From the NCBI GenBank assembly GCA_016938235.1, contig JAFGVA010000063.1, positions 56,010 through 120,009 on the forward strand: 64,000 nt of DNA, in the 5' to 3' direction. How positions within the stretch are numbered: position 1 is the stretch's first letter; every line of letters starts with the position of its first letter. Position numbers and translations under genes: made by a program. The notes beneath the pieces are model-generated. The model was given only the letters and a program-made list of their open reading frames with translations. It did not search any database and had not been told where the DNA came from. The stretch is from Bacteroidales bacterium. GTDB lineage: Bacteria; Bacteroidota; Bacteroidia; Bacteroidales; UBA10428. This document shows positions 3,612 to 33,526 of this stretch, piece after piece.

Positions 3612-3665
3612 GGCGCGCGGCTCTGCCGCGTGACACAGTACAGTCACGCGGCAGAGCCGCGCGCC
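3612..3665. terminator. Perfect 23-bp GC-rich inverted repeat (hairpin); possible bidirectional terminator or palindromic element
   Basis: GGCGCGCGGCTCTGCCGCGTGAC (3612-3634), 8-nt loop, GTCACGCGGCAGAGCCGCGCGCC (3643-3665). It lies between convergent genes, and a T-rich run (ATTTTCTTT) begins 9 nt after the right arm. The GC content stands out sharply against AT-rich flanks. Confidence 0.45.
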
Positions 3666-3675
3666 AGTATAAAAT

Positions 3676-3759
3676 TTTCTTTATGCACTATTGTATATTG
3701 GGATATTGTTTGTTCAGGCATATTCTCTATACAAAATAAAAATATTTATTAAGCTTTAG
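3676..3759 (+). pseudogene. Displaced, diverged second copy of the last 27 codons plus stop of the HGSNAT-like gene
   Basis: 3676-3759 translates as FLYALLYIGILFVQAYSLYKIKIFIKL*, against the live gene end FLYALMYIGVLFVPAYILYRKKVFIKL* (3511-3594). The copies have the same length and the same frame modulo 3. The offset is exactly 165 nt. Confidence 0.6.
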
Positions 3760-3856
3760 AAATTTTTGGTAAGAGGCTTAAATGCACGCCATACGTCAAA
3801 GCCGTTCGTTAACTTATACTAATTACTGCCTTCGCAGGAACGACGATTTATACAAA

Positions 3857-10800: not shown

Positions 10801-13800
10801 AATTATGACCGACAGCAACAACAGCAAAGCTTACATTATCGCCATTACAGCCCGAAACATCGACCGGTTGCTGAATAATTTCTGTCACTTTTCTAACTTC
10901 AACATCGGCAAGGTTGCTAACTACCGTACCACAACTACCGGTAACTTCTACAGAATAAACTGCATCATCGGACAGCACTGCATTTGCAATATTTAAATTC
11001 GCTGTATTTGTTCCGGTAATATTTGCTCCGTCAGAGATATCAGTAACTCCCTTGCGCCATTGATAAGACAGATTGCTTCCTGTAGCAAGCACAGTCAATG
11101 TGGTTGTTTGACCTTCGCAAATAATATCTCCTGAAGGATTAGTTGAAATAGCCGTGATTTCATTTGAAGTTAACCCGGCTGAATTTGAATTTTGTGTTCC
11201 ACAACTTCCGGTTACGATACATACATAAGAACCATCATCTGTGGGATCCAGTCCTGAAATACTCATATTTGGCGTATTTGTACCAGAAAGTGTACCTCCA
11301 TCAGAAATATTTCCTCCATCTTTTTGCCACTGATAGCTTAGGCCTGCACCATTTGCCAATACCGAAAATGTTATATTGTCGCCATTGCATCCTGTTGCAT
11401 CAACAGGCTCCAAGGTAATTTCTGTACTTTCTTCAACAACAAGTTGTGCAATTATGCTATTATCTGAACCGCAAATGCCGTTAACCTGACACGTATATGA
11501 ACCAATATTTGTTGAAGCAGCATTCGATATGGTAAGGTCTGCTGTTGTAGCTCCTGAAATATTTCCTCCATTGCTAAGTACAGCCCCTCCTTTGCTCCAA
11601 GTATAAGTAAGATTATCTCCTTCGGAAACTAAAGAAAAGGTTTGTGATGAACCTTCACAAATAGTATTTCCTGATGGCTCAATTGTAATGTTTGTATTTT
11701 CATATATTGTCAGATTAGCAGGGTCGCTATTCGCTGTTGCACAAACACCTGTCACAATACACTGGTAAATTCCTTCATCAGAGGCAACTGTTGAAGAAAT
11801 ACTTAGTACCTCTGTGTTAACACCGCTTATCGTACCTCCATCTAACATATCAGAACCATTAATTTGCCATTGATACGTTAATGATGAACCCGAAGCATCA
11901 ACAGAGAAAATTGCAGCATCGCCTTCGCATCTGCTAATTGCAGCAGGCTGAGTATTTATAACCGGATTCTGATTTACAGTTAAAATGGCTGGAGCAGTGC
12001 TCTCACCAGTAACAATACAAGTGTAGGCACCGGCATCAGACAATGTAGAACTTGTAATATTCAGATTAGCTGTAGCAACACCTGTAATGTTTGCATTATT
12101 TACTAAATCTACACCATCCTTTCTCCACTGGTAGGTATTCCCTGTACCACTGGCTGTAACAGTGAAAGCTGCACTCTCACCTTCGCACCGGGTAATACTT
12201 TGAGGTTGATTAATAATATTTGTTGTCAGGTTTACTGTTAGATTTGCCGGATTACTGATAATTGTATTACAAGTTCCTGTTACAATACATCTATATGCAC
12301 CTTCATCAGCCTCAGCCACTCCAGTTAAATCAAGGGTGGCAGCATCAGAACCTGAGATGGTTGCATTATCCGCCAAATTAACACCATCTTTTTGCCATTG
12401 ATAGATAAGGTTATCTCCCCCGGCAACAACTGAAAATGATGCATCTCCTCCAACAACAATTGTATAAGCAACCGGCTGTGTAATAACTGTTGTGGTTGGG
12501 TTAACAATTACATCAGAAGATGTGCTGTTTTCACTGCCGCAAGAACCAGTAACATAGCAACTGTATATACCATCATCCGTTTCATCAATACCGGAAATTA
12601 TTAAGTTATCGCCAAGCGATCCTGAAACATTACCACCATTTACAAGATCAACACCATCTTTTCTCCACTGATAGCTAAGGTTAGTACCATCGGCAACAAC
12701 AGAAAGGTTGAGGTTGTCACCTTCACAAAGTACGGAATTTAGCAGTGGCTGGCTTGTAATGTCTACCGTTTCGTCAATAATCAAAGTAGCACCATCGGAT
12801 ATTTGAGTTCCACAATCACCCGAAATAATACAACGATATACTCCGGCATCACTAGCCGTAACAGCAAGTATGTCAAGCCCGGTTGAAGTCTCGCCACCGA
12901 TATCCATTCCATTTTTCTGCCATTGATATGCCAGATTCGAACCTGTTGCCAGCACACTGAAGCTTGCATTTTCTCCCGGACAGGCGATTAAGTTAACAGG
13001 TTGTTCTGAAATTGTAATGGCTTCATCAACAATTAGATTTACCGAAGTACTGTTAACGGAACCACAAGTGCCGGTAACAACACAACTTATTACTCCTGCA
13101 TGAGTTAAATCTACCGGATAAAAACTTAAACTGTTTGTGTTAACACCCGAAATTGCTGCACCATCGGCAAGATCAATGCTATTCAATTTCCATTGGTAGG
13201 ATAATCCTGTACCGGCAGCTGTTACAACAAATCCGGCACTGCTACCTTCACAAACTTCCTCATCGGTTGGTTCAATGGTAATTGAAACTGCTGAATTAAC
13301 CGTTAAAGTTGCACCTGCCGAAACGATTGTACCGCAATCACCAGTGATTACACACCTGTATGTTCCGGCATCGCCTGCTGCAACACCCGACAATAATAAT
13401 CCGGCACTAGATTCACCAGGAATATCTATCCCATTTTTCTGCCACTGATACAATAGAATGTCGCCTGTTACAACAACATTATAGACAACATTATTGCCTG
13501 GACAAGCTGTTTTACTCTGTGGCTGACTTGTAATAGCTATTCCTTCGTTAACAGTGAGATTTGCAGGAAGTGTATTTTCTAAACCACAAGTACCGGTCAC
13601 TTCACAAACATATGCTCCTTCATTGGTTAGAGCCACAGGATCGAAAACCAGGTTATTTGTGTTTGCCCCGGTAATACCTACACCATCGACAACATCAACT
13701 CCATTGTTTTTCCATTGATATGTCAGGCCTGTACCCGTTGCTTCGACTGTTAAACCTGCCATTTCACCCTCGCAAACTGTTTGATTCGCAGGTTCTGTTA

Positions 13801-16800
13801 TGATAATAACATCTTCATTAACAATTAGGCTGGCAGCATTGCTTATCTCGGCACCACATGTACCATTTACCACACATCGATATAATCCTTCATCAGCATC
13901 CGTAACATTGTTCAGTAATAAAGCTGAATTTTCTTCCAAAGGAATATCAACTCCGTTAACCTGCCATTGATATGATATTCCTGTTCCTGATGCAGTAACA
14001 TTGTAAATAATATCATCGTCTGGACAGGCAGTTTTATTCTGAGGATTTAAGGATATTGTGACTTCTTCGTTAACGGTAAGATATACCGTTGTACTGGTTT
14101 CGTTACTACAAGTACCACTTACAACACATGAAATTGAGCCTTCAAGTGCTGTAATTGCCGGGTTTATTACCAGGTTATTGGTTGCAGATCCGGATACACC
14201 CCCTCCATCAACGAGATTTGAACCATTTAACTTCCATTGGTAGGTAGGTGATGTACCAGTAACTGTTATGGAGAAACCAGCAGCTTCATTTTCACAAACT
14301 TCATCATTAACCGGCTCAGAGGTAATTTCAATATCTTGGTTTATGGTAAGAAGAGCACCGTTGCTGTTCACTGTTCCACAATCGCCTGTAACCACACAGC
14401 GGAAGGTTCCTGCATCGGCGGTGGTAACATTATTTATTATATAGCTGTTGGTAGTTACGCCAACAGGTACGCCACCTTTTTGCCACTCATAGTTTAAATT
14501 GGTTCCTGTTGCTGAAATACTAAATACAGCATTACCTCCCTCACAAACCGACTGATTGGAAGGGTGCACAGAAATACTTGTATTTTCCTTTAAAACAAGG
14601 TTTGCCGGATTCGATGTTTCAGAACCACAACTTCCGACCACTTCACACTGATATACTCCGTTATTACCCGCAATTATTCCAATTATATTTAATGTGTTTG
14701 TTAGTGCTCCGGAAATATTACCTCCGTTTGTCAGATCAAAACCATCTTTTTTCCATTGATAAATTAAATTGCTTCCGTCAGCAGCAACTACATAAGTGGC
14801 ATTTCCGCCTAAACACTCGGTCACAGTTGTTGGTTGCAAAGTTATTATGGTATTAGCATAAAGACTTAAATCGGCTGACTGACTGATTAATGTTGAACCA
14901 CAGGAATTTGTAATAATACAACGGTAACTTCCAACATGAGTAGCATCTACACCGATAATTGAATAAACAGAATTAGTTGCTCCGGCAATATCAATACCGG
15001 CTTTTTGCCATTGATAACTTAGATTTGAGCCTGAGGCTGTAACACTAAAGGATATATTATCTGTTTCACAAGCCTGAATATCTGTTGGCTGAACAGAGAT
15101 GGCAATTGCATCATCGACGGAAATAACAGCTGGATCGGAATCAATAGTTCCGCAATCGCCAAACACTTTACAATAATAAGTACCGGCGTCGGTAACATCG
15201 AGGTTATTAATAACAAGGTTATTGCTTAAAGCACCAGAAACATCACCTCCATTTACAACTATTGCAGCATTTTTGTACCATTGGTAATTCAGGTTTGAAC
15301 CCGAGGCTGTAACTGAAAGATTTATATTGTTGCCAACACATTCTATTGCATCAGTCGGCTGAACACTAATTGCAGTCAAAGGATTGATGGTTAACGTTGC
15401 TATTGAACTATTAAGGCTTGAACCACAGGAATTTGAAACTACACATCTGTAATTCCCGGCATCGGCAGCAACAACAGAATTCACATTTAAGTTAGCTGTT
15501 GTAATTCCCAAAGAAACTCCATCTTTAAACCACTCGTAACTTAAATTACTTCCAGTTGCAACAATTGAAAAGGTTATATTATTTCCCTCACAGGCTGTCT
15601 GACTAAAAGGTTGGGTTGTTATAGCAATAGCATCATCAACAATCAATGTAGCCGGATCACTATCTAAGGAACCACAATCACCAGATACCTGGCATAAATA
15701 ACTTCCTGCGTTAACAGGTGCTACCCCTGTCAGAACCAAAATATCTGCAGTTGAACCTGAAATCACACCACCATCAACTGTTGGTAAACCATCTTTTTGC
15801 CACTGAAAGCTTAAATTTGACCCTGTAGCCGTAATGCTGAAACTGGCATTTCCACCTTCACATTCAACAGCATCAACCGGATGAGCAGTAATTGCAGTTG
15901 CTATATTCATTGTTAATGTTGCTGAAGAGGTAAGCTGTGTTGCTCCGCAAGGACTCGAAACAAGGCAACGATAATTACCGGCACTTGTAGCATCAACATT
16001 GTTCAATACCAGACTCTGACTGGTCTGACCGACTATATCTACACCGTTTTTTCTCCATTGATAAGACAAACTTGTACCTGTTGCAGTAACATTAAAGCTT
16101 ACACTATTACCCGGACAAGCGGTTTTGCTGACCGGCTGGCTGGTTATAACAATAGGTGCATCAATTTCAACAGTTGCTGCATCGCTTTCAAGTATTCCAC
16201 AATCGCCCGTGACAACACAACTGTATAAACCAATATCTGCAGTAGTAACATTTGTAATTACAAGATTAGACAGTGTTTCTCCTCCAATATCTACTCCATC
16301 TTTCTTCCATTGATAGCTCAAATTTGAACCTGTTGCAATAACTTCAAGACTTATTGTACCTCCTGCGCATAAGTATTGATCGGTAGGATTAGTAGTTATA
16401 GCAGTTGCCGAAACCATTGTTAATGTAGCCGCATCGGATGTTAAAGGACCTCCGCAGGTGCTCGTAATTTCACAGATATAATCGGCCTCAAAAGTGGCAT
16501 CGATTCCATTAAGTGCGAGAATTGGGTTAACAGCGCCTGCTATCATTGCGGCATCTTTATACCATTGATATGTAAGGTTAACGCCCGTTGCTTCAATTGA
16601 GATTGTTGTATTAGAACCTGGACAACCATTAACATTTGAAGGCTGTGTGGCAACAACGACTTGAGGATGAACATTTACCTGAGCAGAACCCGCTCCTGTG
16701 TTGGAACAACCATTTCCATCTGTAACAACACTGATGGTATAGGTAGTAGTATCTGTTGGTGAAACATTATTATTATACAAAAGAGCACCATAATTGCTTA

Positions 16801-18415
16801 CATCTGTATCGACTGTGCCTGTTGTATAGGTAAAATTGAATGGCGTCGCACCGGTCAGATTAACAGTTAGCGGGGTATTACTTCCTTCGCAGATAGTTGC
16901 ATTGCCGGAAATTGTAGCTGTTGGTATTGCGTTCACAGTGGTCTGCTTAGTAATAAAAGCAGAACAACCAGCAGGACTTGTATAGGAATACCTGACGGTG
17001 TATGGTCCACCCACAGCAAGAGCAGCCGGATTAAAACCGGCTGTCCCATTACCGTTATCAGTTATTCCGGGTCCTGTAAATGTTCCGGCGGGAGCATAAT
17101 TACCTGTTAAAGTTACACTTGTTCCATTTTTACAATATTGTGTTGAAAAACCCGAAAAAGCAGGAGTTGGTAAAGCTACCACATCAACATCCTGACTGAT
17201 TGTATTATCACAAAAACCATCGTTATAAGTGTATTCAACTGTATGCGTTCCCACACCGGCGGTTGATGGATCAAAATCAGCTGAACCATCAAGATTATCT
17301 GATAAACCTGCAATAAGAGTGTAACTTCCGCCAGCTGGCGTTGCCACTACAGTAGCGCTTGTTTCGTCGAAACAATAAGCTGGATCAAGGCCATTCATAG
17401 TAAGAACAGTTCCTACGTCAACTGTTTGTGATTCGCTGCTAATACACGAATTGCCATCGGTATAGGTATACGTTATTGTAAACGTTCCCAAACCTGCAAC
17501 AATTGGATTGAAATTTGCTGTTCCATTGCCATTATCAAAGATACCCGAACCTGTAAAAACACCACCGGCATCTGTAGGTGTACCGGTAAGTGGTGCGGCT
17601 GCATCAAGCTCACAATATTTTGCTGCTAATCCTGCAAAACTCACAGCAGGAAGATGATTTACTGTTATATTTCCAGAGGAGGAATTTGTGCAGTTTCCAT
17701 CATCGTAAGTATATGTAATGGTTTGTGTTCCTACCCCGGCAACAGTCGGATAAAAGCTGCCACCCGAAACACCTGTTCCAGAGTAGGTACCACCAACAGG
17801 AGTTGCCTGGTTTAGAACGATGGCTGCTCCACCTTCGCATTGATCAGGAAAAGCAGCAATATTAATAATTGGTAATGCATGAACAGTTATATTTTGGTAA
17901 GCAGTACTTGTACAAGTCCCAACCTCATTGGTATAAGAAATTGTATGTGTCCCGGCACCTGCAACAGCCGGATCAAAGTTTCCTGAGCCATCAACTCCTG
18001 GGCCTGAATAGATACCCCCTGCAGGATTTCCCCCACTTAAAGCAAAAACTGATTCATCAATACAAACATCGGCAAGCGGATCGAGGGTTGTTGAAGGAAA
18101 GGCTGAAACTTCGATTGTTAATGTTACCCTTGGTGGATTGTCATAAGTAATAGTATGAGTTCCCACTCCAGCAATATTCGGATCAAATGTGGCAGAATCA
18201 TTTTTTGTTGGATTTATAGGATCCGGATGATTTGTTATTCCTGGCCCATAAAAGAATTTTGTGCTTGGATTATTTGCAGTTACCGTAACAGATGCGTCGT
18301 TAACACAAAAGATTTGACCATTTGTAAGACCGTTTATAACTACCTGCGTATATGATGTAAAAGAAATACCAATCAGTATAACCGAATACAGTAATTTTTT
18401 TTTTGAAGATACCAT
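4850..18415 (-). CDS. Giant (4521 aa) repetitive cell-surface adhesin, SprB-like T9SS cargo with type-B C-terminal sorting domain
   Basis: A single uninterrupted 13,566-nt ORF with an N-terminal signal peptide (KKKLLYSVILIGISFTSYTQ). It contains three internal repeat arrays, two PKD-like domains and a gliding-motility-type CTD. Confidence 0.9.
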   Translation of the reverse strand: MVSSKKKLLYSVILIGISFTSYTQVVINGLTNGQIFCVNDASVTVTANNPSTKFFYGPGITNHPDPINPTKNDSATFDPNIAGVGTHTITYDNPPRVTLTIEVSAFPSTTLDPLADVCIDESVFALSGGNPAGGIYSGPGVDGSGNFDPAVAGAGTHTISYTNEVGTCTSTAYQNITVHALPIINIAAFPDQCEGGAAIVLNQATPVGGTYSGTGVSGGSFYPTVAGVGTQTITYTYDDGNCTNSSSGNITVNHLPAVSFAGLAAKYCELDAAAPLTGTPTDAGGVFTGSGIFDNGNGTANFNPIVAGLGTFTITYTYTDGNSCISSESQTVDVGTVLTMNGLDPAYCFDETSATVVATPAGGSYTLIAGLSDNLDGSADFDPSTAGVGTHTVEYTYNDGFCDNTISQDVDVVALPTPAFSGFSTQYCKNGTSVTLTGNYAPAGTFTGPGITDNGNGTAGFNPAALAVGGPYTVRYSYTSPAGCSAFITKQTTVNAIPTATISGNATICEGSNTPLTVNLTGATPFNFTYTTGTVDTDVSNYGALLYNNNVSPTDTTTYTISVVTDGNGCSNTGAGSAQVNVHPQVVVATQPSNVNGCPGSNTTISIEATGVNLTYQWYKDAAMIAGAVNPILALNGIDATFEADYICEITSTCGGPLTSDAATLTMVSATAITTNPTDQYLCAGGTISLEVIATGSNLSYQWKKDGVDIGGETLSNLVITNVTTADIGLYSCVVTGDCGILESDAATVEIDAPIVITSQPVSKTACPGNSVSFNVTATGTSLSYQWRKNGVDIVGQTSQSLVLNNVDATSAGNYRCLVSSPCGATQLTSSATLTMNIATAITAHPVDAVECEGGNASFSITATGSNLSFQWQKDGLPTVDGGVISGSTADILVLTGVAPVNAGSYLCQVSGDCGSLDSDPATLIVDDAIAITTQPFSQTACEGNNITFSIVATGSNLSYEWFKDGVSLGITTANLNVNSVVAADAGNYRCVVSNSCGSSLNSSIATLTINPLTAISVQPTDAIECVGNNINLSVTASGSNLNYQWYKNAAIVVNGGDVSGALSNNLVINNLDVTDAGTYYCKVFGDCGTIDSDPAVISVDDAIAISVQPTDIQACETDNISFSVTASGSNLSYQWQKAGIDIAGATNSVYSIIGVDATHVGSYRCIITNSCGSTLISQSADLSLYANTIITLQPTTVTECLGGNATYVVAADGSNLIYQWKKDGFDLTNGGNISGALTNTLNIIGIIAGNNGVYQCEVVGSCGSETSNPANLVLKENTSISVHPSNQSVCEGGNAVFSISATGTNLNYEWQKGGVPVGVTTNSYIINNVTTADAGTFRCVVTGDCGTVNSNGALLTINQDIEITSEPVNDEVCENEAAGFSITVTGTSPTYQWKLNGSNLVDGGGVSGSATNNLVINPAITALEGSISCVVSGTCSNETSTTVYLTVNEEVTISLNPQNKTACPDDDIIYNVTASGTGISYQWQVNGVDIPLEENSALLLNNVTDADEGLYRCVVNGTCGAEISNAASLIVNEDVIIITEPANQTVCEGEMAGLTVEATGTGLTYQWKNNGVDVVDGVGITGANTNNLVFDPVALTNEGAYVCEVTGTCGLENTLPANLTVNEGIAITSQPQSKTACPGNNVVYNVVVTGDILLYQWQKNGIDIPGESSAGLLLSGVAAGDAGTYRCVITGDCGTIVSAGATLTVNSAVSITIEPTDEEVCEGSSAGFVVTAAGTGLSYQWKLNSIDLADGAAISGVNTNSLSFYPVDLTHAGVISCVVTGTCGSVNSTSVNLIVDEAITISEQPVNLIACPGENASFSVLATGSNLAYQWQKNGMDIGGETSTGLDILAVTASDAGVYRCIISGDCGTQISDGATLIIDETVDITSQPLLNSVLCEGDNLNLSVVADGTNLSYQWRKDGVDLVNGGNVSGSLGDNLIISGIDETDDGIYSCYVTGSCGSENSTSSDVIVNPTTTVITQPVAYTIVVGGDASFSVVAGGDNLIYQWQKDGVNLADNATISGSDAATLDLTGVAEADEGAYRCIVTGTCNTIISNPANLTVNLTTNIINQPQSITRCEGESAAFTVTASGTGNTYQWRKDGVDLVNNANITGVATANLNITSSTLSDAGAYTCIVTGESTAPAILTVNQNPVINTQPAAISRCEGDAAIFSVDASGSSLTYQWQINGSDMLDGGTISGVNTEVLSISSTVASDEGIYQCIVTGVCATANSDPANLTIYENTNITIEPSGNTICEGSSQTFSLVSEGDNLTYTWSKGGAVLSNGGNISGATTADLTISNAASTNIGSYTCQVNGICGSDNSIIAQLVVEESTEITLEPVDATGCNGDNITFSVLANGAGLSYQWQKDGGNISDGGTLSGTNTPNMSISGLDPTDDGSYVCIVTGSCGTQNSNSAGLTSNEITAISTNPSGDIICEGQTTTLTVLATGSNLSYQWRKGVTDISDGANITGTNTANLNIANAVLSDDAVYSVEVTGSCGTVVSNLADVEVRKVTEIIQQPVDVSGCNGDNVSFAVVAVGHNLTYQWQKNGVDISDGGTISGTGTNVLSIADIVPADAASYRCEITGSCNTIYSDPATLSSYTTTQITTHPTGTTVCEGSSFSMGVVGIGDNLVYQWSKDGVALSNGGNISGVNSANLSVTNAVLTDKGSYTVEVSGECSSAISNLAIVKVDSVTKISLQPIDILGCEGDNVSFSVLASGKNITYQWQKDGVNLSNTGAVSGVNTSLLNINGIVPANDGSFRCMVTGGCNTVNSNIATLNSYENTHIFTQPVGTTVCEGSQVSMNVASLGDNLTYQWKKNGSNLSDGGDISGSATNTLLLNNSILSNSGVYTCLVTGSCGTENSSPASVTITEETVITTQPVSKSTCEGDVAVFTVAATGENLIYQWQRNEINLSDNAKVFGSNTAILTINNLVSTDAGIYRCVVTGTCGAVNSDGSDLAVNVYPSAAGVIVGPTSVCQGDENVIFEVANINNTSVYNWILPVGVTIQSGEGTRLIEVSFANGELGGNIFVQGENTCGNGTISTAHNVVANPIPNALAGPDQSICSDNSSLEAVHPGTATGTWSVLDGPAVVQNVNINTSSVTNLRTGSNTFIWTVTQSGCSSTDTVVVRNNSVVAEAGTNQTICIESITLEGNTPPDGAFGGWSITTGSASFSDGDSPISTASAFASGINILRWTLTNGTCSDYDTVVVDNQAPSTAYAGIDQSICGTSTSLSANNPAVGVGNWTVISGSVSFANASQNNSAITNISKGSNILRWTITNGICSSIDEVSVTNNKVSVNAGIDQVICDRTADLAATPPVTGVGNWSVFSGSAAFVNNNLYNTRVTGLAKGENILGWNINNNGCISTDTVSITNDSPTQSDAGNDEVITADFTTLQGNIPAIGTGTWSLIAGSAVIAEPGLYNTNVTGLALGDNTFRWTISHNSCISYDEVIITNFTPTDTDAGSDQTICSTEAQLEANEPIFGFGEWSVIQGSATFTDKTQYNTTVKGLASGDNVLRWTIWQNGYSSDDVVITNDLPTQADGGGIQVLCSDSTKLSANEPLIGKGKWTVVSGAGTFDNDSVYNTIVRSMSKGENIYKWTITNKSCILSDNVSISNDLPTEAIAGQDQSICSNTTILSPNTPSVGTGTWSVIGGSATFNGNIVSSLAEGDNTLRWTITNKSCSLFDETVVTNNTPSKAQAGADKVLCADSISLAANTPIIGTGTWSIQSGSGDIADSLSSTSKVTDMNQGINVFRWTISNYGCSNFDEVVITNSLIEAVAGSDQAICSETTVLEANNPDAGEGLWTVLGGSGSATFDDATQPDTRVSKLDKGANILRWTIINDICESHADVVISNDLPTVSYAGPDESLCIDSTALKAGVPLIGTGEWSILSGSATISDINSNTSKITNLGYGVNTLRWTISNSGCTSTDEVVITNNATVDSDAGTDVSVCSDSTVLFGNNPPFGIGQWSVIKGSATFVDNINYNTKVRNLGKGTNVLRWMILNGDCSSSDNVSVTNNSPSTSIAGGDQTICGDYTTLFANIPAIGTGHWVLVSGAASFEDSTKYNTTVSGLNPGNNTLRWVIENEGCTKYDDVVITNDLPYVADAGQDMELCSASGKLFANDPISGVGMWSVISGSGSFDNAAKYDAIVSNLGFGTNTLRWTITYDECETTDDITVVNNKLDIYAGIDQVVGEPRTLLAANNPSSGNGMWSVVGGLGAFEQQNNSITFVNGLGAGLNTFRWSVDINGCISYDDVSVTYNVPPGASFVITSSEGCPPLEIYFVNNSMDNLPFSWDFDDGTSSEEVTVRHIYTEPGTYRPTLTIIGNAGEVIQKDTLITVYPQPDASFLVVNKEVYIPEEDALFINNSTNAVSYVWEFGDGSTSEERDPKYTYVTPGLYDITLHAYSDKNCYDSTTMIGAVEVLESGTIIFPNAFTPNLEGSSNGVYNENDFSNDVFFPIGEGLDEYHLEVFNKWGVLVFESREISIGWDGYYNGELLEEGVYVWKVTGKYNNGRDYKKVGTVLLIR
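4853..5155 (-). other. Type-B T9SS C-terminal sorting domain (gliding motility-associated CTD) of the giant protein
   Basis: The last ~100 aa read IIFPNAFTPNLEG...NDVFFPIG...YHLEVFNKWGVLVFES...GWDGYYNGELLEEGVYVWKV...GTVLLIR. This matches the FTPNGDG.N..F/W.G-type pattern of type-B CTDs. Confidence 0.8.
5160..5650 (-). other. Two PKD-like domains of the giant protein
   Basis: Motifs FSWDFDDGTSSEEVTVRHIYTEPGTYRPTLTI and YVWEFGDGSTSEERDPKYTYVTPGLYDITLHA (WxFGDG...H.Y...G.Y.V.L pattern). Confidence 0.75.
5655..9280 (-). repeat. 15 tandem ~80-aa modules (AG.DQ.IC....L.AN.P..G.G.WSV.SGSA.F.......NT.V..L..G.N.LRWTI.N..C.S.D.V.ITN)
   Basis: Counted directly from the translation, aa ~3045-4255. Each module has a conserved Cys pair and a WS/WT...RWTI core. 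Coordinates are approximate to a few codons. Confidence 0.8.
9540..16680 (-). repeat. 27 tandem Ig-like (I-set-type) domains of ~88-93 aa
   Basis: The motif [LI]xY[QET]W.K.G....(GG..SG)...L.I.......D.G.Y.C.V.G.CG recurs 27 times, aa ~578-2958. Boundaries were anchored on back-translated peptides at nt ~16680 (GAGSAQVNV) and ~9540 (TDAGIYRCVVTGTCGAVNSDGSDLAVNV). Confidence 0.85.
16680..18330 (-). repeat. 6-7 N-terminal ~75-80-aa modules (C......L.G.P.GG.YSG.G....G.F.P..AG.GTHTITY.Y....C......I.V..LP)
   Basis: Read from the translation, aa ~30-578. The core AG(V/A/L)GT(H/Q/F)TI(T/S)Y recurs. Confidence 0.7.
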
Positions 18416-18588
18416 TAAAGTAATTCGTTTTTTAAAAATCTTGTGCTGCTAAAAATCACAGCAAAACACTACTTTAAGTTACGAAAAACAGAGCTATCAG
18501 TTTTAGGGAAAACCCCGATTTATCGGTGATATATCTCACCTTCTTTTTATCAAAATGGGTATAAACACTCACTTGTATGTCGGAAAGA

Positions 18589-18868
18589 AGTTGAAAGTTG
18601 GGAGAAGAGTGATTGGTGATTGGCGATTGGTGATTGGTGATTGGTGATTGGTGATCGGTGATTGGTGATTGGTGATCGGTGATTGGTGATTGGCGATTGG
18701 TGATTGGCGATTGGCGATTGGTGATTGGCGATTGGTGATTGGTGATTGGTGATTGGCGATTGGTGATTGGTGATTGGCGATTATCGATTGGTGATCGGTG
18801 ATTGGCGATTGGTGATTGGTGATTGGTGAAGAGTGAAAAGTGAAAAGTGAAAAGTGAAAAGTGAATAG
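18589..18868 (+). repeat. Phase-coherent heptanucleotide tandem array, 40 units
   Basis: Units are AGTTGAA AGTTGGG AGAAGAG, then 31 x YGATYGG (TGATTGG x18, CGATTGG x8, TGATCGG x4, CGATTAT x1), then TGAAGAG, TGAAAAG x4, TGAATAG. I counted base by base and found no phase slip over 280 nt. Confidence 0.95.
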
Positions 18869-18901
18869 GAACTAGAAACTTTGTACTATGAAAATGTAGG
18901 T

Positions 18902-21900
18902 TTATTCCATTTGTTCCTCATCAGAGGCTTCGTTGCCCTCCAAAATATCCTGCCAGCGGCGATAGAAATTGTTTTTCTTACGATCTGTTGAAATTAAGTA
19001 ATTGTATGGCGTTTCGTTACGTGGAACTTTAAGCTTTCGTTCCTTCAACTTCATATTCATAATCGTTTCAACATACTCCTTGTTGTGCGAAAGGGTTTGC
19101 ATAATTCCCCTGGTATATCCGAAATAGTAGTAATTTCTTCTGTCAAGCTGAAGGTATAAATCCATAATATCGCCACTGCGCTTAAGTCTTAATTCGAAGA
19201 ATCCTTCAAGCTGCTTATTAATCTGTATTCCGTTGATACTTGCAATTCCAATTTTGCCAACAGACTGATAAGAATTTGTATTATTATTCCAGACAAGCTT
19301 TAACTGGTTGAGCAAAATAGTATGTTTTAAAGGCGAGGGCAGATCTTTTATTGTGCCGAACAGGTTCAGTTCATCCTGTATTTTTTGCGCTACAGGTTCG
19401 GTTAACCAGGCATTCATTGTTTTTTTATAAACCGACCTGGTAAGGTCAACCGGAAATATATTTGGAAAACTATCGATCTCATTACCTACCAGATTAATCA
19501 TGTGATCAGAAATATAGAAATCAATACCCATGATTACATCCAGTTCGGTTAATTTCTCATTCAGATCATGTTTAAAGTTACCGTAAGTTGTCAGTTTTAC
19601 CTGTCCCAGATTTTCTCCCAGATCAATGTTTCCTTCACCGTACATTTTACAATCTTCGCGATGAAGACTTAAGTAATCTTGAGATAAGGTAAAATCATTG
19701 ATCTTCTCCTTTGAGCCTATCTTATATAAATGAGAGGCCTTATCGTAATGCAGATATCCCGAAGTTTTTATCAGTTGGCGATCGCTGTAATTCTTGCGAC
19801 CGGTTAAGAAGCTTGGATAAACATGCACCGAATCGTAGTAAACGAACAGTCCGCTATAGATATTTTTTCTGTCGATATTCTTAGATTCGAGCTGAACCGG
19901 GATATAGATATCATCGGGGTTTATTTGAGTTCTGAAAAACAGCCAATCGGGCTCAAGTATATCGCAGGCATGCTCGATTTTTGTTGAACCTTCGAAGGTT
20001 AACAATGAATCTTGAGCGAATAGAAATACCTTGCCCTGATACTTATAAACAGGACTTAAAGTAAAATCTGCCGTAGAAAAGATTTCACCCTGAGCAATAG
20101 TCTGCAATCCGGAGTCGACTTTAAGTTCCTTAAAATGAATTGTTTGCTTTTCCCGGTTTTCATCGAAATAATCATAATTTCCCATACCGGTATAATCTTT
20201 CCTGCTAAACACCTTAACCGATGCAGTATGCAGAGTATGGTATTTTGTTGTTGTATTTGCTCTGATTCGTGCATCGATAAACCTGCTCAGAGTATAATCG
20301 GGCTGAACACTTAACAAACCATCTTTAGGATAAATTTTTGCATCAGCCACCTCAATAAATTTCACCCCTGTTGCATTAATGTAATTTCTTTCATAATCGT
20401 AATATGCAAGAGGAGACACGAAGTTCAGAGAATCTTGTTTTTTATCGGTTGAAATGTACCTTGGGCCTTCAGGTTCGGTATCTTCATCGCTATAATCAGG
20501 TAATTCAGGCCTGGTTTTTGAACCCATTGCCAGTTTTTTGTCTTTCATATCCCATACAAAAACATCAATGTAACTTATGTACCTGTTTTCAGGAAATGTG
20601 ACCAAAGAATATCCTTCATTAGACTTAAACCAGCCTTTTCTGTTACGGTAGTCAATATGGCTGTTGATATTCTCAGTTAATACTGTAAAGCCCTCTTTTC
20701 TTATTGATTTTAAATAGAAATCGGAAGTATCTGCAAATATTTCATCGGCTTTATAGGTGAACAAATCCGAAATTAAGTCAGAATTTCTAAGATCCATTCT
20801 GCCTTTCCCCGATAAACCAACCGGTTCAAGTTTTAATGTTCCGGAAAGTGTTGTGGAATCATTAAACATAGTGAAATTATCGGTTGTTTTATGTACCCAC
20901 ATTACATCGTTGTATGGTTCCCAGTGAACATAGTTTTGTGTAGACCGTGTCATTGGATATTCCACACCTGAGAAACTTTTTTGAATAGTATACTGTTGTG
21001 AATTCGTATTCATTGAATCGGGGAAGAAATTGAAATCATCGGACCATGTAGTTGATGTAAGGTACTCCAGTTTACCATTTCCTTTTAATCCCCTGTTTGA
21101 TAGGGTAATATCATTGTAAATGGTGCCTTTACCTCCAAAAACAGGCATTCCCTGACTTGGTGTTTTATGGGTAAAACCTAATGAATTATCATCCTGTAAG
21201 GATAATTCCTGGTTGATATCGGGTAAAATTCCTGCTGAAACGAATTTACCCTTATAGGTCATTGAATAGGGATTAAAGTTATCAAGACTATCCATTTCGA
21301 AGGGTTCAACAGCAAAATAAAAATCGTTTGATGAATATGCACCATCCTGAATTGCTGATGATTCGTAGTAAACATAGGATGTTTCTCTGCTTTTGAAAAT
21401 GGGATATTGGGGATATGAGACGCGTCCGGATTTATTATCCGCCTTATCAATCAATATTTCTCCGGTTATATTTCGGATCCTGTTTTTAATATTTTCAATG
21501 ATCGGAAAACCATAATTGTTCAGTTCCCCTGTCATGAAGTCAATACTTAGAGAGTCGACATTTTGAAGGTTCACTTTGAATGAATCGTAACTAAAAAACA
21601 AGTTCTTACCGAAGAAAGTCATTAATCCTGCAGTTACTACACCATCGAACTGGAAATTCCGGTCATGCTTAAATACTATTCGTTGATTTTCCGGATAAAT
21701 AATAACATTTTGTGAATCACTCACCTGAATTTGCGGGATCCCATTTATAGTCAGGTCATAGGTTTTTAAATTGAAAACAGCATTTTCTTCCGGAGCCTGA
21801 ACAACAGATTTAAATGCCATTACATCGTAATCGATTTTATTTACACTTGCTGCCAGGTAATCGTGTAACCTTTGTTTGATTGTAATTGTTTCTGTATTGC

Positions 21901-23389
21901 TATCGTAGAAAACGAAACCATTGAAAGCCATACGCATAGCTTGTTGTTTAACCACGTGCAATGGCATTTTCAGATAATCTGCCAGAGCCTGTACCGGAAA
22001 TTCATCGTTACCATATTTCTTAGAAAAAGTACGAAATACAATCAAGGGATGAGACTCATCCATCATTTGTAAATTGAGAAAACGTTCAAAATTAAAGAAG
22101 TTTACAGATTCGAAATAAGCATTTCCGATTGAGGCTCCTCTGGAGGCTGAAAACTGCATATAATTTTGATCCAGATTCCAGGATAACTGGTCAAAGTTCA
22201 TATCAACCTTGTGATAAGAATTTGAATATGGCCCCATTGATGAAAAGTTCTCGTTCTTCAGGAGTATTAACTCGCGGTTATTTATTCTGTAATTGAAAAG
22301 CAAATCGGGATGGAAAATAGAATCGTTTTTTAATATTATACTAATGCTGGTACTCTGACTGGAAACCCTGTCAGCCTTAAAACCAAAATACAATGAACTG
22401 GCACGTAAAACAAGTGTGTCATTTCTAAACAGATATAAGCTTGCAGGAGATTCCTGAGAACCTGTTCCAACCAGCTTTGCTCCTTGCATAGAAAGCCCTC
22501 CGGCATAATCGATATCTTTGTATAAATCTTTAATTTTGAACGACTTGGCGTAGGAGTAAAACTGTGGGTAATCAGCATCTTCAGGCTGACTAATTTTTTT
22601 AACTTTATCTTTAAGTTCTCCTGTCAAGGGTTCGTCAAAATATATTTTGCTCGTAAATGTTACATTATCTACCGAGTATTCCGATTTGTTTAAACTAATA
22701 GTAAAATCTTTAAATTCGGCATAAACATCATCTTTACTGTAGCCTCCCCGTTCCCAGGTTACCAGGCCTTTTTCTCCCTCCCAAAGATTTTCTTCCGGAT
22801 TTACTTTACCCGTAGTATTATATAAATGAATGCTATCAATCTTGGTGTAGCACACAAGGTTTGTATTTGAAAATTCAACCTGCAAGCCTTTTTTATCCAA
22901 TATCTTATAATCTTCTGATGTTGCATGCCACCTTGTTGAGGCAGACTCATATATATTATTGTCAATCACCAGGTTGTTAGAAAATTCCAGAAGATTATTC
23001 AGAAGACTGGTATTTTGTTTTCGGGAATCGAGGTAATAACTGTAGCCTTTAACCCAGCTCTTATAGTTTTCAGAGCTAATATTTTTTTCTTTAAAGTTTA
23101 AATACAACTTCAGGAAGTTTACAAAATGAGGATAAGGCCTGGCGTTTTTAATATCGAGCTTCTGACTCAACTTAATAATATCTTTTTGTTCATCGGCAGT
23201 AAACAAACTGTCTTCGACCCATGATTCCATAAATTTCTCAACCAGCTCTTCGTGCTGATCTGTAACATTACTCATGTATTTCTCTAGTTCTTCGGGGTAA
23301 AGCTGCGGGTCTCCCGAAAATTTAGAATCTTGTTTAGAAAATATACCAAATAATAATCCAAGAATAGTAATAAATGAAAAAACGCGCAT
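18902..23389 (-). CDS. Large (~1495 aa) secreted or cell-envelope protein of unknown function, directly upstream of the SprB-like adhesin gene
   Basis: Long ORF with an N-terminal signal-like segment (MRVFSFITILGLLFGIFSK). The ORF-track start at 23395 is a TTG, and an in-frame ATG at 23389 is more likely. I recognised no catalytic motif. Confidence 0.7.
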   Translation of the reverse strand: MRVFSFITILGLLFGIFSKQDSKFSGDPQLYPEELEKYMSNVTDQHEELVEKFMESWVEDSLFTADEQKDIIKLSQKLDIKNARPYPHFVNFLKLYLNFKEKNISSENYKSWVKGYSYYLDSRKQNTSLLNNLLEFSNNLVIDNNIYESASTRWHATSEDYKILDKKGLQVEFSNTNLVCYTKIDSIHLYNTTGKVNPEENLWEGEKGLVTWERGGYSKDDVYAEFKDFTISLNKSEYSVDNVTFTSKIYFDEPLTGELKDKVKKISQPEDADYPQFYSYAKSFKIKDLYKDIDYAGGLSMQGAKLVGTGSQESPASLYLFRNDTLVLRASSLYFGFKADRVSSQSTSISIILKNDSIFHPDLLFNYRINNRELILLKNENFSSMGPYSNSYHKVDMNFDQLSWNLDQNYMQFSASRGASIGNAYFESVNFFNFERFLNLQMMDESHPLIVFRTFSKKYGNDEFPVQALADYLKMPLHVVKQQAMRMAFNGFVFYDSNTETITIKQRLHDYLAASVNKIDYDVMAFKSVVQAPEENAVFNLKTYDLTINGIPQIQVSDSQNVIIYPENQRIVFKHDRNFQFDGVVTAGLMTFFGKNLFFSYDSFKVNLQNVDSLSIDFMTGELNNYGFPIIENIKNRIRNITGEILIDKADNKSGRVSYPQYPIFKSRETSYVYYESSAIQDGAYSSNDFYFAVEPFEMDSLDNFNPYSMTYKGKFVSAGILPDINQELSLQDDNSLGFTHKTPSQGMPVFGGKGTIYNDITLSNRGLKGNGKLEYLTSTTWSDDFNFFPDSMNTNSQQYTIQKSFSGVEYPMTRSTQNYVHWEPYNDVMWVHKTTDNFTMFNDSTTLSGTLKLEPVGLSGKGRMDLRNSDLISDLFTYKADEIFADTSDFYLKSIRKEGFTVLTENINSHIDYRNRKGWFKSNEGYSLVTFPENRYISYIDVFVWDMKDKKLAMGSKTRPELPDYSDEDTEPEGPRYISTDKKQDSLNFVSPLAYYDYERNYINATGVKFIEVADAKIYPKDGLLSVQPDYTLSRFIDARIRANTTTKYHTLHTASVKVFSRKDYTGMGNYDYFDENREKQTIHFKELKVDSGLQTIAQGEIFSTADFTLSPVYKYQGKVFLFAQDSLLTFEGSTKIEHACDILEPDWLFFRTQINPDDIYIPVQLESKNIDRKNIYSGLFVYYDSVHVYPSFLTGRKNYSDRQLIKTSGYLHYDKASHLYKIGSKEKINDFTLSQDYLSLHREDCKMYGEGNIDLGENLGQVKLTTYGNFKHDLNEKLTELDVIMGIDFYISDHMINLVGNEIDSFPNIFPVDLTRSVYKKTMNAWLTEPVAQKIQDELNLFGTIKDLPSPLKHTILLNQLKLVWNNNTNSYQSVGKIGIASINGIQINKQLEGFFELRLKRSGDIMDLYLQLDRRNYYYFGYTRGIMQTLSHNKEYVETIMNMKLKERKLKVPRNETPYNYLISTDRKKNNFYRRWQDILEGNEASDEEQME

Positions 23390-23433
23390 ACCCAAATTGC
23401 TTAGTTAAAAACCAGTTTGTATGTGAATAGATT

Positions 23434-33340: not shown

Positions 33341-33417
33341 GAGTCGGGAGTCGGGAGCAGGAAGTTGAAAGTTGAAAGTTGAAAGTTGAAAGTTGAAAGT
33401 TGAAAGTTGGAAGTTGG
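33341..33417 (+). repeat. Heptanucleotide tandem array, 11 units (GAGTCGG x2, GAGCAGG, AAGTTGA x5, AAGTTGG x2, AAGTCGT)
   Basis: The array starts at the first base after the cdaA TGA stop. It keeps perfect 7-nt phase over 77 nt. Confidence 0.9.
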
Positions 33418-33526
33418 AAGTCGTTTGGGGCAAACCAAAAAACTGTATAATGTTAATACAACAATATAAATTTTGCCCATGTAAAAAAGATTTTAAAAAC
33501 AACGGTCTGATATTAAACCTGCATTT

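What the first reader, a model, noticed from the sequence alone, without database searches (positions are those of the whole stretch)
18589..18868. 280-nt perfectly phased heptanucleotide array (31 x YGATYGG flanked by AGTTGAA/AGTTGGG and TGAAAAG units) between the 1497-aa gene and the giant adhesin gene
Seen in sequence:
- Forty consecutive 7-nt units run with no phase slip.
- The core is 31 copies of TGATTGG with three point variants (CGATTGG, TGATCGG, CGATTAT) interspersed non-randomly.
- The edges grade into other heptads: AGTTGAA, AGTTGGG and AGAAGAG on one side, and TGAAGAG, TGAAAAG x4 and TGAATAG on the other.
- The array sits 33 nt after the stop of the upstream minus-strand gene and 173 nt before the ATG of the 13.6-kb adhesin gene.
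- A minus-strand transcript crossing it would read (CCAAUCA)n. That gives about three C per heptad and only 12 G in the 217-nt core, so the RNA is C-rich, G-poor and probably unstructured.

Inference (alternatives):
- (a) A slipped-strand VNTR could set the spacing or coupling between the two genes and so vary adhesin expression.
- (b) A rut-like Rho loading platform could attenuate read-through into the adhesin gene.
- (c) It could be a multivalent protein-binding platform. ATTGG/CCAAT is the Y-box core bound by cold-shock-domain proteins, and 3 x 7 = 21 bp is about two helical turns.

Heptameric tandem repeats are known as STRR elements in heterocystous cyanobacteria. I am not aware of an equivalent described in Bacteroidota.
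Basis: partly seen in the sequence, partly recalled or inferred. Interest (0 to 1): 0.7.

Follow-up and report, generated by a model that had tools for sequence, protein, structure and literature searches.

The report
Heptanucleotide microsatellite array (STRR-like)
The 280-base run of 7-base units is real, but it is one of several scattered heptanucleotide microsatellites in this Bacteroidales genome, a repeat class already described in cyanobacteria, Xanthomonas and some Bacteroidetes with no known function, and nothing shows it is a switch built for the adhesin gene.

Summary
Window 18589-18868 holds 40 in-phase heptads: 31 TGATTGG-type units plus AGTTGAA/AGTTGGG/AGAAGAG and TGAAAAG-type edges. 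It lies 33 nt after the stop of the 1497-aa gene and 173 nt before the ATG of the 4521-aa T9SS protein. It is not a one-off. The surveyed 81 kb of this MAG contig holds four heptad arrays that share units, and the others sit beside housekeeping genes. Four relatives (66-67% identity or less) have no arrays, at these sites or anywhere in 85 kb. (TGATTGG)n arrays with the same composite build occur at more than 120 loci in many phyla, including Nostocales and many Bacteroidota. Heptamer repeats of this kind are published (MacGregor 2015; Rehm 2015), so this is a new member of a known kind. Orientation relative to genes is unbiased in Bacteroidota (9 vs 10) and is similar in cyanobacteria, which have no Rho. 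That argues against a general rut role. New here: an inverted copy of the array lies about 3 kb left of the window. The two arrays bracket a 21.5-kb GlcNAc-utilisation and adhesin block that the relatives lack. Caveat: independent short-read assemblies break inside the arrays, so the copy number, and possibly the join, are unverified.

The parts
18589..18609 (.). Edge of array 1 nearest the adhesin gene: AGTTGAA AGTTGGG AGAAGAG. The AGTTGAA/AGTTGG unit is the same one that builds array 2.
   Evidence: The Logan contig L152 reproduces it.
18610..18826 (.). Core of array 1: 31 units (19 TGATTGG, 8 CGATTGG, 3 TGATCGG, 1 CGATTAT). The minus strand reads (CCAATCA)n.
   Evidence: The interior 18639-18838 is present only in the MAG assembly. 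Position 18677 differs between copies of the record.
18827..18868 (.). Edge of array 1 nearest the 1497-aa gene: TGAAGAG, TGAAAAG x4, TGAATAG. Array 4 outside the window is built of the same unit.
   Evidence: Logan contigs L125 and L126 end inside it.
18869..18901 (-). 33-nt spacer between the stop of the 1497-aa gene and the array. It contains GTTTCTAGTTCCT, which also lies between the yfcE-like gene and array 3.
18416..18588 (-). 173-nt region between the array and the adhesin ATG. It has no TAnnTTTG box. A weak terminator-like hairpin lies at 18463-18444.
18902..23395 (-). Conserved 1497-aa hypothetical protein with no Pfam or NCBIfam match. Its 3' end reads into the array in the CCAATCA sense.
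4850..18415 (-). 4521-aa protein with Ig and PKD repeats and a CHU_C T9SS sorting domain. PorP/SprF follows at 3857-4849. This is the right-hand end of the 21.5-kb block that the relatives lack.
33341..33424 (+). Array 2: GAGTCGG x2, GAGCAGG, AAGTTGA x6, AAGTTGG x2, AAGTCGT. It starts on the base after the cdaA stop codon. The cdaA-mscS gap is 186 nt here and 12 nt in two relatives.

Best explanation
Array 1 is one member of a genome-wide family of heptanucleotide simple-sequence repeats, the class called STRR in cyanobacteria and LSSR (long simple sequence repeats) in Mrazek's survey of prokaryotic genomes.

**Origin (inferred).** These arrays arise and change length by replication slippage on 7-nt units. 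They diversify by point mutation followed by re-expansion, which gives the composite, graded look. They persist in the non-coding DNA next to gene 3' ends because they do little harm there.

**At this locus (shown).** The array sits in the 3' flank of the 1497-aa gene, in the orientation that carries no stop codons. It keeps the usual short spacer after the gene's own stop. It marks one boundary of a 21.5-kb accessory block: GH20, SSF transporter, ROK kinase, NagX-like protein, PorP and the giant T9SS protein.

**Function (inferred).** It was probably not built to regulate the adhesin. Any effect would be a by-product. It is a length-variable spacer. If it is transcribed from the upstream gene, it gives a long, untranslated, unstructured, C-rich and G-poor RNA on which Rho could load. 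That would limit read-through into the adhesin gene.
For: - **Several arrays, shared units.** There are four arrays in the 81 kb of this contig that I could read. TGATTGG occurs in arrays 1 and 3, TGAAAAG in 1 and 4, and AGTTGAA in 1 and 2.
- **Neighbours are mostly housekeeping genes.** These are cdaA/mscS, a PUA_4 RNA methyltransferase, and a yfcE-like gene with GH20.
- **Absent from relatives.** Four relatives have conserved synteny but no array at the orthologous sites. A period-7 scan found no array in their 85 kb, only one 19-nt weak period-7 run in L128.
- **Widespread unit.** (TGATTGG)3 hits more than 120 loci, including Nostocales, Pleurocapsales, Saprospiraceae, Paludibacteraceae, Flavobacteriales, Xanthomonadales, Planctomycetota and Verrucomicrobiota. 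These arrays are usually mosaics of one-mismatch units. Bacteroidota examples have the same TGAATAG/TGAAGAG tails.
- **Positional rule.** Arrays in the TGA-containing sense abut the stop codon (70% within 10 nt). Arrays in the CCAATCA sense keep a median 84-nt spacer (Fisher P=9e-6). Arrays 1 to 4 all obey this. Rehm et al. 2015 report the same rule for other heptamers.
- **Literature.** Heptamer repeats in Bacteroidetes and cyanobacteria are described in PMC4679880. Their abundance, length variation between close relatives, transcription and unknown function are described in PMC4692102.
- **Not something else.** The array is not coding, matches no Rfam family, and has no canonical promoter box in or next to it.
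Against: - At 262-280 nt, it is longer than all 111 (TGATTGG)n arrays measured in other genomes (median 49, maximum 246). It also sits directly upstream of a giant surface protein, the classic setting for a contingency locus.
- Reuse of a small set of units, both in one genome and across phyla, could reflect selection (for example a binding protein) and not slippage alone.
- The inverted twin array at the other end of the accessory block suggests a role in recombination, which plain slippage does not explain.
- No data on length polymorphism could be obtained.
Confidence: 0.7

Rival explanations
1. Rho loading platform (rut). The array is transcribed from the 1497-aa gene as (CCAAUCA)n. Rho loads on this RNA and terminates before the adhesin gene, which insulates or attenuates that gene.
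For: - The minus-strand core is 42% C and 5.5% G, with YC dimers every 7 nt.
- It has essentially no structure (MFE -3.7 kcal/mol over 280 nt).
- It starts 33 nt after a stop codon, so it would be untranslated.
- Array 3 has the same C-rich sense relative to the yfcE-like gene that reads into it, with a 51-nt spacer.
- No canonical promoter lies between the array and the adhesin ATG, so read-through could matter.
Against: - Across genomes the orientation at gene 3' ends is unbiased: 9 G-rich-sense vs 10 C-rich-sense in Bacteroidota.
- The ratio is similar in cyanobacteria (10 vs 14). Cyanobacteria lack Rho (established knowledge).
- Arrays 2 and 4, and array 3 as read from GH20, are G-rich and C-poor in the sense of the gene that reads into them.
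- About 60% of the genes here with long upstream gaps also lack an exact -7 box, so its absence is weak evidence.
Confidence: 0.15
2. Contingency locus. Slippage changes the copy number and so tunes or switches adhesin expression, as the (ATCTTTC)n tract does upstream of Haemophilus influenzae hmw1A and hmw2A.
For: - This is a heptanucleotide SSR directly upstream of a giant secreted surface protein.
- In H. influenzae, more 7-bp repeats between promoters P2 and P1 lower hmwA transcript and protein (PMC8262952).
- The array is unusually long.
- The single base that differs between two copies of the record lies inside the array.
Against: - The other three arrays flank housekeeping or metabolic genes.
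- Rehm et al. reached the same negative conclusion for other heptamers.
- No promoter element overlaps or brackets the array.
- The array is 173 nt from the ATG.
- No polymorphism data are available.
Confidence: 0.12
3. Recombination substrate. Arrays 1 and 3 are inverted copies that delimit a 21.5-kb accessory block. Dispersed arrays of one unit would provide portable homology through which the block was integrated, or can be inverted or exchanged.
For: - Array 3 (L129 5276-5491) reads CCAATCA on the window's + strand, while array 1 reads TGATTGG.
- The two share a 55-nt identical stretch and the outer-flank 13-mer GTTTCTAGTTCCT.
- In relatives the 1497-aa gene and the yfcE-like gene are convergent neighbours 32-62 nt apart, or are separated by other cargo.
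- A Logan contig of 21,531 nt starts inside array 3. Its length matches the 21.5-kb distance between the arrays. A second Logan contig, from the other run, starts inside array 1's inner edge.
- The block has a slightly higher GC content (0.398 vs 0.36).
Against: - The block contains no integrase, transposase or other mobility gene.
- The sequence similarity extends on the outer side of the arrays, not the inner side, unlike transposon terminal repeats.
- The order is R..F, unlike all 8 close hairpin pairs seen elsewhere.
- Short-read assemblers collapse such repeats, so placing the block between these two genes could be a mis-join.
- This is a single case.
Confidence: 0.12
4. Multivalent protein-binding platform. 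The repeated ATTGG/CCAAT heptads, as ssDNA, dsDNA or RNA, would recruit a cold-shock-domain protein, S1, a nucleoid protein or another binder.
For: - A small set of units is reused in this genome and in many phyla.
- MacGregor 2015 proposes S1, Csp or CsrA as binders of TAACTGA repeats.
- Cold-shock proteins bind stretches of about 7 nt of single-stranded nucleic acid (own knowledge, not tested here).
Against: - There is no direct evidence.
- The units drift freely by point mutation within arrays.
- Arrays occur in both orientations.
- No candidate binder was identified.
Confidence: 0.05

Closest known systems
STRR (short tandemly repeated repetitive) heptamers of heterocystous cyanobacteria, and heptanucleotide LSSRs (long simple sequence repeats) in general (Mrazek 2007, as summarised in PMC4679880)
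   Same: - 7-nt units in head-to-tail arrays.
- Many dispersed intergenic copies per genome, built from a small set of units.
- No known function.
- The identical TGATTGG unit forms arrays in Anabaena, Dolichospermum, Sphaerospermopsis and Calothrix.
   Different: - The host is a Bacteroidales MAG.
- The units differ from the canonical STRR1-3 (CCCCAGT, TTGGTCA, CAACAGT; from my own knowledge), none of which is tandem here.
- The rotation TTGGTGA is one mismatch from STRR2.
TAACTGA and accompanying heptamer direct repeats in Beggiatoaceae, cyanobacteria and five Bacteroidetes (MacGregor 2015, PMC4679880)
   Same: - Long intergenic heptamer arrays (up to 43 copies) in Bacteroidetes such as Gramella forsetii and Aequorivita sublithincola.
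- Other heptamers occur in the same spacer.
- Close relatives lack the repeats at the same site.
   Different: - The unit is different. TAACTGA is never tandem here.
- Beggiatoaceae repeats sit just upstream of start codons. Array 1 is 173 nt from the ATG and follows a gene's 3' end.
GGGNATC / GGGGA(C/T)T heptameric repeats of Xanthomonas and Nostoc (Rehm et al. 2015, PMC4692102)
   Same: - Genome-wide intergenic heptamers that vary in length between close relatives.
- The G-rich strand lies on the coding strand right after, or overlapping, the stop codon, with a larger distance in the other orientation.
- They are under-represented between divergent genes.
- They are not tied to surface genes (compared).
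   Different: - Those units have G3-4 tracts and form G-quadruplexes, with a preferred length of four units.
- TGATTGG has only GG pairs, and the array here has 31-40 units.
(ATCTTTC)n promoter SSR of Haemophilus influenzae hmw1A and hmw2A (PMC8262952)
   Same: A heptanucleotide SSR upstream of a very large secreted adhesin gene. It is a proven case where the 7-bp copy number tunes adhesin expression.
   Different: - There the tract lies between, and overlaps, two mapped promoters, and it is specific to the hmw loci.
- Here no promoter was found, and sister arrays flank housekeeping genes.

Membership tests
Heptanucleotide SSR / STRR-like repeat family | Head-to-tail tandem copies of a 7-nt unit, far beyond chance | tested here: met
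   40 in-phase units with 0% indels and TRF score 344. Shuffled sequence gives none.
Heptanucleotide SSR / STRR-like repeat family | Several dispersed arrays in one genome built from a small shared set of units | tested here: met
   Four arrays in 81 kb share TGATTGG, TGAAAAG and AGTTGAA units. Only about 81 kb of the genome could be read.
Heptanucleotide SSR / STRR-like repeat family | Intergenic and non-coding | tested here: met
   No ORF spans the array. All four arrays lie between genes. Array 3 overlaps only the stop codon and last codons of GH20.
Heptanucleotide SSR / STRR-like repeat family | Positional rule: the G-rich strand is coding-sense and abuts the stop codon, and the spacer is longer in the opposite sense (Rehm 2015) | tested here: met
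   Across 64 gene 3' ends facing intergenic arrays in other genomes, 70% vs 15% lie within 10 nt (P=9e-6). Array 1 has a 33-nt spacer in the C-rich sense. Arrays 2, 3 and 4 abut or overlap stop codons in the G-rich sense.
Heptanucleotide SSR / STRR-like repeat family | Copy number varies between strains or within populations | not testable with these tools
   No closer relative than 67% protein identity was found. The metagenome flank scan found nothing. Short-read contigs break in the arrays.
Heptanucleotide SSR / STRR-like repeat family | Lineage-specific presence: absent at the orthologous site in relatives | tested here: met
   Arrays are absent from the orthologous sites in four relatives, and no array was found elsewhere in their 85 kb.
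Classical cyanobacterial STRR1-3 | Unit is CCCCAGT, TTGGTCA or CAACAGT, in a heterocystous cyanobacterium | tested here: not met
   None of these units is tandem in 72 kb. The host is a Bacteroidales MAG. The unit sequences are quoted from memory.
Contingency-locus promoter SSR (hmw1A type) | The SSR lies between or overlaps promoter elements, or lies in the 5' UTR of the regulated gene | tested here: inconclusive
   No TAnnTTTG box lies in 18416-18901 on the minus strand. The sigma-70-like hit inside the array is within chance expectation. The transcription start site is unknown.
Contingency-locus promoter SSR (hmw1A type) | SSRs are restricted to surface or host-interaction genes | tested here: not met
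   Sister arrays flank cdaA/mscS, a PUA_4 methyltransferase, and a yfcE-like gene with GH20.
Contingency-locus promoter SSR (hmw1A type) | Expression changes with copy number | not testable with these tools
   This needs experiments or paired long-read and RNA data.
Rho utilisation (rut) site | At least 70-80 nt of C-rich, G-poor, unstructured, untranslated RNA | tested here: met
   C 42% and G 5.5% over 217 nt. MFE -3.7 kcal/mol. It starts 33 nt after the stop. Transcription across it is assumed.
Rho utilisation (rut) site | If this is the function of such arrays, they should be in C-rich sense downstream of genes, and should not be equally common in Rho-less phyla | tested here: not met
   9 G-rich-sense vs 10 C-rich-sense in Bacteroidota, and 10 vs 14 in cyanobacteria.
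Rho utilisation (rut) site | Termination downstream that depends on Rho | not testable with these tools
   This needs Term-seq with and without bicyclomycin or Rho depletion.

The most novel reading that the evidence does not exclude
Dispersed arrays of one heptad act as portable homology for genome plasticity. The inverted (CCAATCA)n/(TGATTGG)n pair that brackets the 21.5-kb GlcNAc-utilisation and T9SS-adhesin block would be the footprint of array-mediated integration, or the arms of a RecA-invertible or exchangeable cassette. In either orientation the adhesin operon would lie downstream of a conserved gene plus a length-variable, C-rich, Rho-sensitive tract. Adhesin expression would then be set jointly by block orientation and array length.
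Probability: 0.08. Interest if true: 0.75.

Novelty: new member of a known kind. Interest (0 to 1): 0.33.

Why it matters
Heptanucleotide arrays are among the most abundant unexplained repeats in free-living bacteria. Their function has stayed open since 1990.

This locus adds three things:
- **A long Bacteroidales example.** It uses a unit vocabulary (TGATTGG, TGAAAAG, AGTTGAA) that recurs across phyla.
- **A positional rule for a new unit.** Stop-abutting in one orientation and spaced in the other. The rule was already reported for GGGNATC-type repeats, so it looks like a general property that any mechanism must explain.
- **A testable case.** Two inverted arrays bracket an accessory block that carries a giant T9SS protein.

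In practice, these arrays break short-read assemblies and can cause mis-joins in MAGs. Copy numbers, and even synteny, at such sites should not be taken at face value.

Tried and rejected
- **Coding repeat.** Rejected: no ORF spans the array, and the CCAATCA frames have no start codon.
- **Known RNA family.** None found at E<=1.
- **Higher-order (21-nt) structure or non-random placement of variant units.** Not significant.
- **Replication-strand explanation for the G-rich + strand.** Rejected: array 3, 21.5 kb away on the same contig, has the opposite orientation.
- **Insertion of the block into the loop of an older hairpin-type inverted pair.** Disfavoured: all 8 close pairs in other genomes are ordered TGATTGG..CCAATCA, whereas the pair here is CCAATCA..TGATTGG.
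- **'The array supplies the stop codon' as the full explanation of the positional rule.** Insufficient: Rehm's GGGNATC repeats obey the same rule without containing stops.
- **Phage or mobile-element origin.** Only 16 of 2.9 million viral contigs carry (TGATTGG)3. The block has no mobility genes.
- **Search for other strains, to see copy-number variation.**
  - The exact-protein look-up with the 1497-aa ORF translation found nothing.
  - With the annotated 1495-aa product (P0001) it returned only the source MAG and its two source runs.
  - The metagenome scan with the 3'-end flank of the 1497-aa gene found nothing.
- **Promoter search.** No canonical Bacteroidota -7 box. The sigma-70-type scan is at chance level.
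Full report
**1.

Window 18589-18868 consists of 40 consecutive heptads in one phase. On the + strand they read:
- AGTTGAA, AGTTGGG, AGAAGAG
- then 31 core units: 19 TGATTGG, 8 CGATTGG, 3 TGATCGG, 1 CGATTAT
- then TGAAGAG, TGAAAAG x4, TGAATAG.

Tandem Repeats Finder gives period 7, 31.6 copies, 0% indels and score 344 for the core. It reports a separate 5.7-copy GTGAAAA array at the edge. Among periods 4-12, only period 7 yields tandem arrays in the window. Shuffled sequence yields none.

The array ends 33 nt from the stop of the 1497-aa gene (18902-23395, minus strand). It starts 173 nt from the ATG of the 4521-aa gene (4850-18415, minus strand).

The minus-strand core has C 91, A 82, U 32 and G 12. 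As RNA it is essentially unstructured, with MFE -3.7 kcal/mol over 280 nt, no different from shuffles.

One detail fails. The variant units are not placed in a detectably non-random way (lag-3 P=0.12, runs test P=0.15).

**2. Source of the window and trust in the assembly**

The window is part of contig JAFGOS010000102.1 (219,792 bp) of GCA_016926355.1, a Bacteroidales MAG.

Independent Logan assemblies of two sequencing runs, SRR13394436 and SRR13394437, match the window base for base wherever they overlap. But they stop inside the arrays:
- Two contigs end about 63 nt after the stop of the 1497-aa gene, inside (CTTTTCA)n.
- One contig starts 50 nt inside the adhesin-side edge.
- Two contigs end about 50 nt after the cdaA stop, inside array 2.

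So both edges of array 1 are independently confirmed. The 200-nt interior, and the figure of '31 copies', rest on the MAG assembler alone.

Over the whole 64 kb, the only difference between the window and the database copy of the same record is one base inside the array. At 18677, unit 13 reads TGATCGG in the window and TGATTGG in the database copy.

**3. Gene neighbourhood**

- The 4521-aa protein has Ig and PKD repeats and a C-terminal CHU_C T9SS sorting domain. A PorP/SprF gene follows it.
- The 1497-aa protein matches no Pfam or NCBIfam family. It belongs to a conserved family of about 1495 aa with more than 200 homologues.
- No ORF spans the array.
- No Rfam family matches.
- No canonical Bacteroidota -7 box (TAnnTTTG) lies between the 1497-aa stop and the adhesin ATG. 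Seven other genes in the window have one 26-149 nt upstream of their start, six of them at 26-42 nt.
- A weak terminator-like hairpin lies 30 nt upstream of the ATG.

**4. The array is not a one-off**

- **Array 2** (33341-33424) starts on the base after the cdaA stop codon. It reads GAGTCGG x2, GAGCAGG, AAGTTGA x6, AAGTTGG x2, AAGTCGT. It uses the same AGTTGAA/AGTTGG unit as the edge of array 1.
- **Array 4** lies just left of the window on the same contig (locus L129, where L129 position = window position + 8354). It is (CTTTTCA)x9 at L129 3860-3927 and abuts the stop of a PUA_4 RNA methyltransferase gene.
- **Array 3** is at L129 5276-5491, with about 31 units of CCAATCA, CCGATCA and CCAACCA. 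It lies between a yfcE-like phosphodiesterase gene and a GH20 hexosaminidase gene. The TGA stop of GH20 lies in the array's first unit.

That makes four arrays in about 81 kb, built from shared units. None of the previously described units (TAACTGA, CCCCAGT, TTGGTCA, CAACAGT, GGGNATC types) is tandem here.

**5. Relatives lack the arrays**

The closest available relatives of the 1497-aa protein are 63-67% identical to it. Four of their loci (L127, L128, L153, L154; 85 kb in total) keep the synteny cdaA-folP-tmk-...-tpiA-prmA-1497aa. None has a heptad array.

In two of them, cdaA and mscS are 12 nt apart, against 186 nt in the window.

The gene after the 1497-aa gene varies among them:
- a convergent yfcE-like gene 32-62 nt away (two relatives)
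- a glycosyltransferase followed by yfcE (one relative)
- a TonB-dependent receptor (one relative).

In this MAG, yfcE and the genes beyond it are present in the ancestral order. But they are separated from the 1497-aa gene by array 3, a 21.5-kb block (GH20, SSF transporter, ROK kinase, NagX-like protein, PorP, giant T9SS protein) and array 1.

**6. The same unit elsewhere**

The hits include:
- Nostocales and Pleurocapsales
- many Bacteroidota (Saprospiraceae, Paludibacteraceae, Lentimicrobiaceae, Chitinophagales, Gillisia, Ulvibacter, Haliscomenobacter)
- Xanthomonadales
- Planctomycetota, Verrucomicrobiota and others.

Most of these arrays are mosaics of one-mismatch units such as TAATTGG, TGACTGG, TGATTAG and TGAATAG. 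Several Bacteroidota arrays grade into TGAATAG/TGAAGAG tails, just as array 1 does. Array 1 is longer than all 111 of them (median 49 nt, maximum 246). Short-read assemblies are biased against long arrays.

Only 16 viral contigs carry the pattern.

**7. Context statistics**

I used a simple ORF caller on these loci. Intergenic arrays fall between:

| Gene arrangement | Arrays |
|---|---|
| Tandem genes, CCAATCA sense | 17 |
| Convergent genes | 13 |
| Tandem genes, TGATTGG sense | 8 |
| Divergent genes | 7 |

At gene 3' ends the two orientations are about equally common. The counts are 9 vs 10 in Bacteroidota and 10 vs 14 in cyanobacteria.

The spacing differs sharply:
- When a gene reads into the array in the TGATTGG sense, which has TGA in all three frames, the array abuts or supplies the stop codon. 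The median distance is 4.5 nt, and 70% lie within 10 nt.
- In the CCAATCA sense, which has no stops, the median spacer is 84 nt and 15% lie within 10 nt (Fisher P=9e-6).

Arrays 1 to 4 all follow this rule. Rehm et al. 2015 describe the same asymmetry for GGGNATC and GGGGAYT heptamers in Xanthomonas and Nostoc. They also report under-representation between divergent genes, length variation between close relatives, transcription of most repeats, no link to surface genes, and no identified function.

MacGregor 2015 describes TAACTGA and other heptamer arrays of up to 43 copies in five Bacteroidetes, absent from the same sites in close relatives. That paper also summarises Mrazek's finding that heptanucleotides are the commonest class of long SSR in prokaryotes, possibly because of the polymerase footprint.

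**8. Interpretation**

Array 1 is best read as a member of this known class: a slippage-generated, lineage-specific heptanucleotide SSR tolerated in a 3' intergenic spacer.

- **(b) rut.** The physical prerequisites are met at this locus. Array 3 has the same C-rich sense relative to yfcE. But orientation is unbiased across Bacteroidota and is similar in Rho-less cyanobacteria. Sister arrays are G-rich in the sense of the gene that reads into them. So Rho loading cannot be the reason such arrays exist. It remains a possible local side effect.
- **(a) expression-tuning VNTR.** There is a real precedent in the (ATCTTTC)n tract of H. influenzae hmw1A. Here no promoter is associated with the array, and the sister arrays flank housekeeping genes.
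- **(c) protein platform.** This is untestable here.

**9. What is new and unexplained**

Arrays 1 and 3 are inverted copies. They share a 55-nt identical stretch and the 13-mer GTTTCTAGTTCCT in their outer flanks.

A Logan contig of 21,531 nt starts inside array 3. Its length matches the 21.5-kb distance between the two arrays. A contig from the second run starts inside array 1's inner edge. I did not read the far end of the 21,531-nt contig.

This could reflect:
- integration or exchange of the block through array homology
- an invertible segment
- an assembler mis-join at collapsed repeats.

Close inverted pairs that form long hairpins occur at 8 other loci. All 8 are in the order TGATTGG..CCAATCA, which is the opposite of the order here. 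So a simple 'insertion into a hairpin loop' does not fit. The block has no mobility genes and only slightly higher GC (0.398 vs 0.36). Long reads are needed.

**10. Verdict**

The class is known. There is no evidence for a dedicated regulatory role. Interest is modest. It rests mainly on the inverted-array bracketing of an accessory adhesin block and on the cross-phylum positional rule.

Noticed in passing
window 33341-33424: A second heptad array (GAGTCGG x2, GAGCAGG, AAGTTGA x6, AAGTTGG x2, AAGTCGT) starts on the base after the cdaA stop. It widens the cdaA-mscS gap from 12 nt in two relatives to 186 nt.
   Followed up: yes
L129 5276-5491 and L129 3860-3927 (same contig, about 2.9-4.5 kb left of window position 1): Two more arrays. 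One is a (CCAATCA/CCGATCA/CCAACCA)n array of about 31 units, inverted relative to array 1, lying between a yfcE-like gene and GH20. The other is (CTTTTCA)x9, abutting the stop of a PUA_4 methyltransferase gene. Arrays 1 and 3 bracket a 21.5-kb block that is absent from relatives.
   Followed up: partly
window 18677: This is the only base in 64 kb that differs between the window (C on +, unit TGATCGG) and the database copy of the same GenBank record (T, unit TGATTGG). It may be an ambiguity code or read heterogeneity inside the array.
   Followed up: partly
L004-L123 (other genomes): (TGATTGG)n arrays read in the TGA-containing sense abut or supply the stop codon of the upstream gene (70% within 10 nt). 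In the CCAATCA sense the median spacer is 84 nt (P=9e-6).
   Followed up: yes
L013, L020, L022, L034, L054, L098, L099, L122: Close inverted pairs, (TGATTGG)n-loop-(CCAATCA)n, form long near-perfect hairpins (predicted MFE of the surrounding 153-276-nt segments -53 to -153 kcal/mol). All 8 have the same order and none the reverse. They may act as bidirectional terminators.
   Followed up: partly
window 18902-23395 (minus strand): The conserved 1497-aa protein has no Pfam or NCBIfam match. More than 200 homologues of about 1495 aa exist in Bacteroidales-type assemblies, always next to prmA. The site just downstream of it varies among relatives (yfcE, glycosyltransferase, TonB receptor, or the 21.5-kb block).
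   Followed up: partly
window 1-4849 plus L129 5478-8354: The block that carries the giant T9SS protein also encodes an apparent N-acetylglucosamine/chitobiose utilisation set: GH20 hexosaminidase, SSF transporter, ROK kinase and a NagX-like membrane acetyltransferase.
   Followed up: partly
window 18444-18463 (minus strand): A weak terminator-like hairpin (6 bp stem, then a U-rich tail) lies only 30 nt upstream of the adhesin ATG. It could be a 5'-UTR attenuator or a chance match.
   Followed up: no
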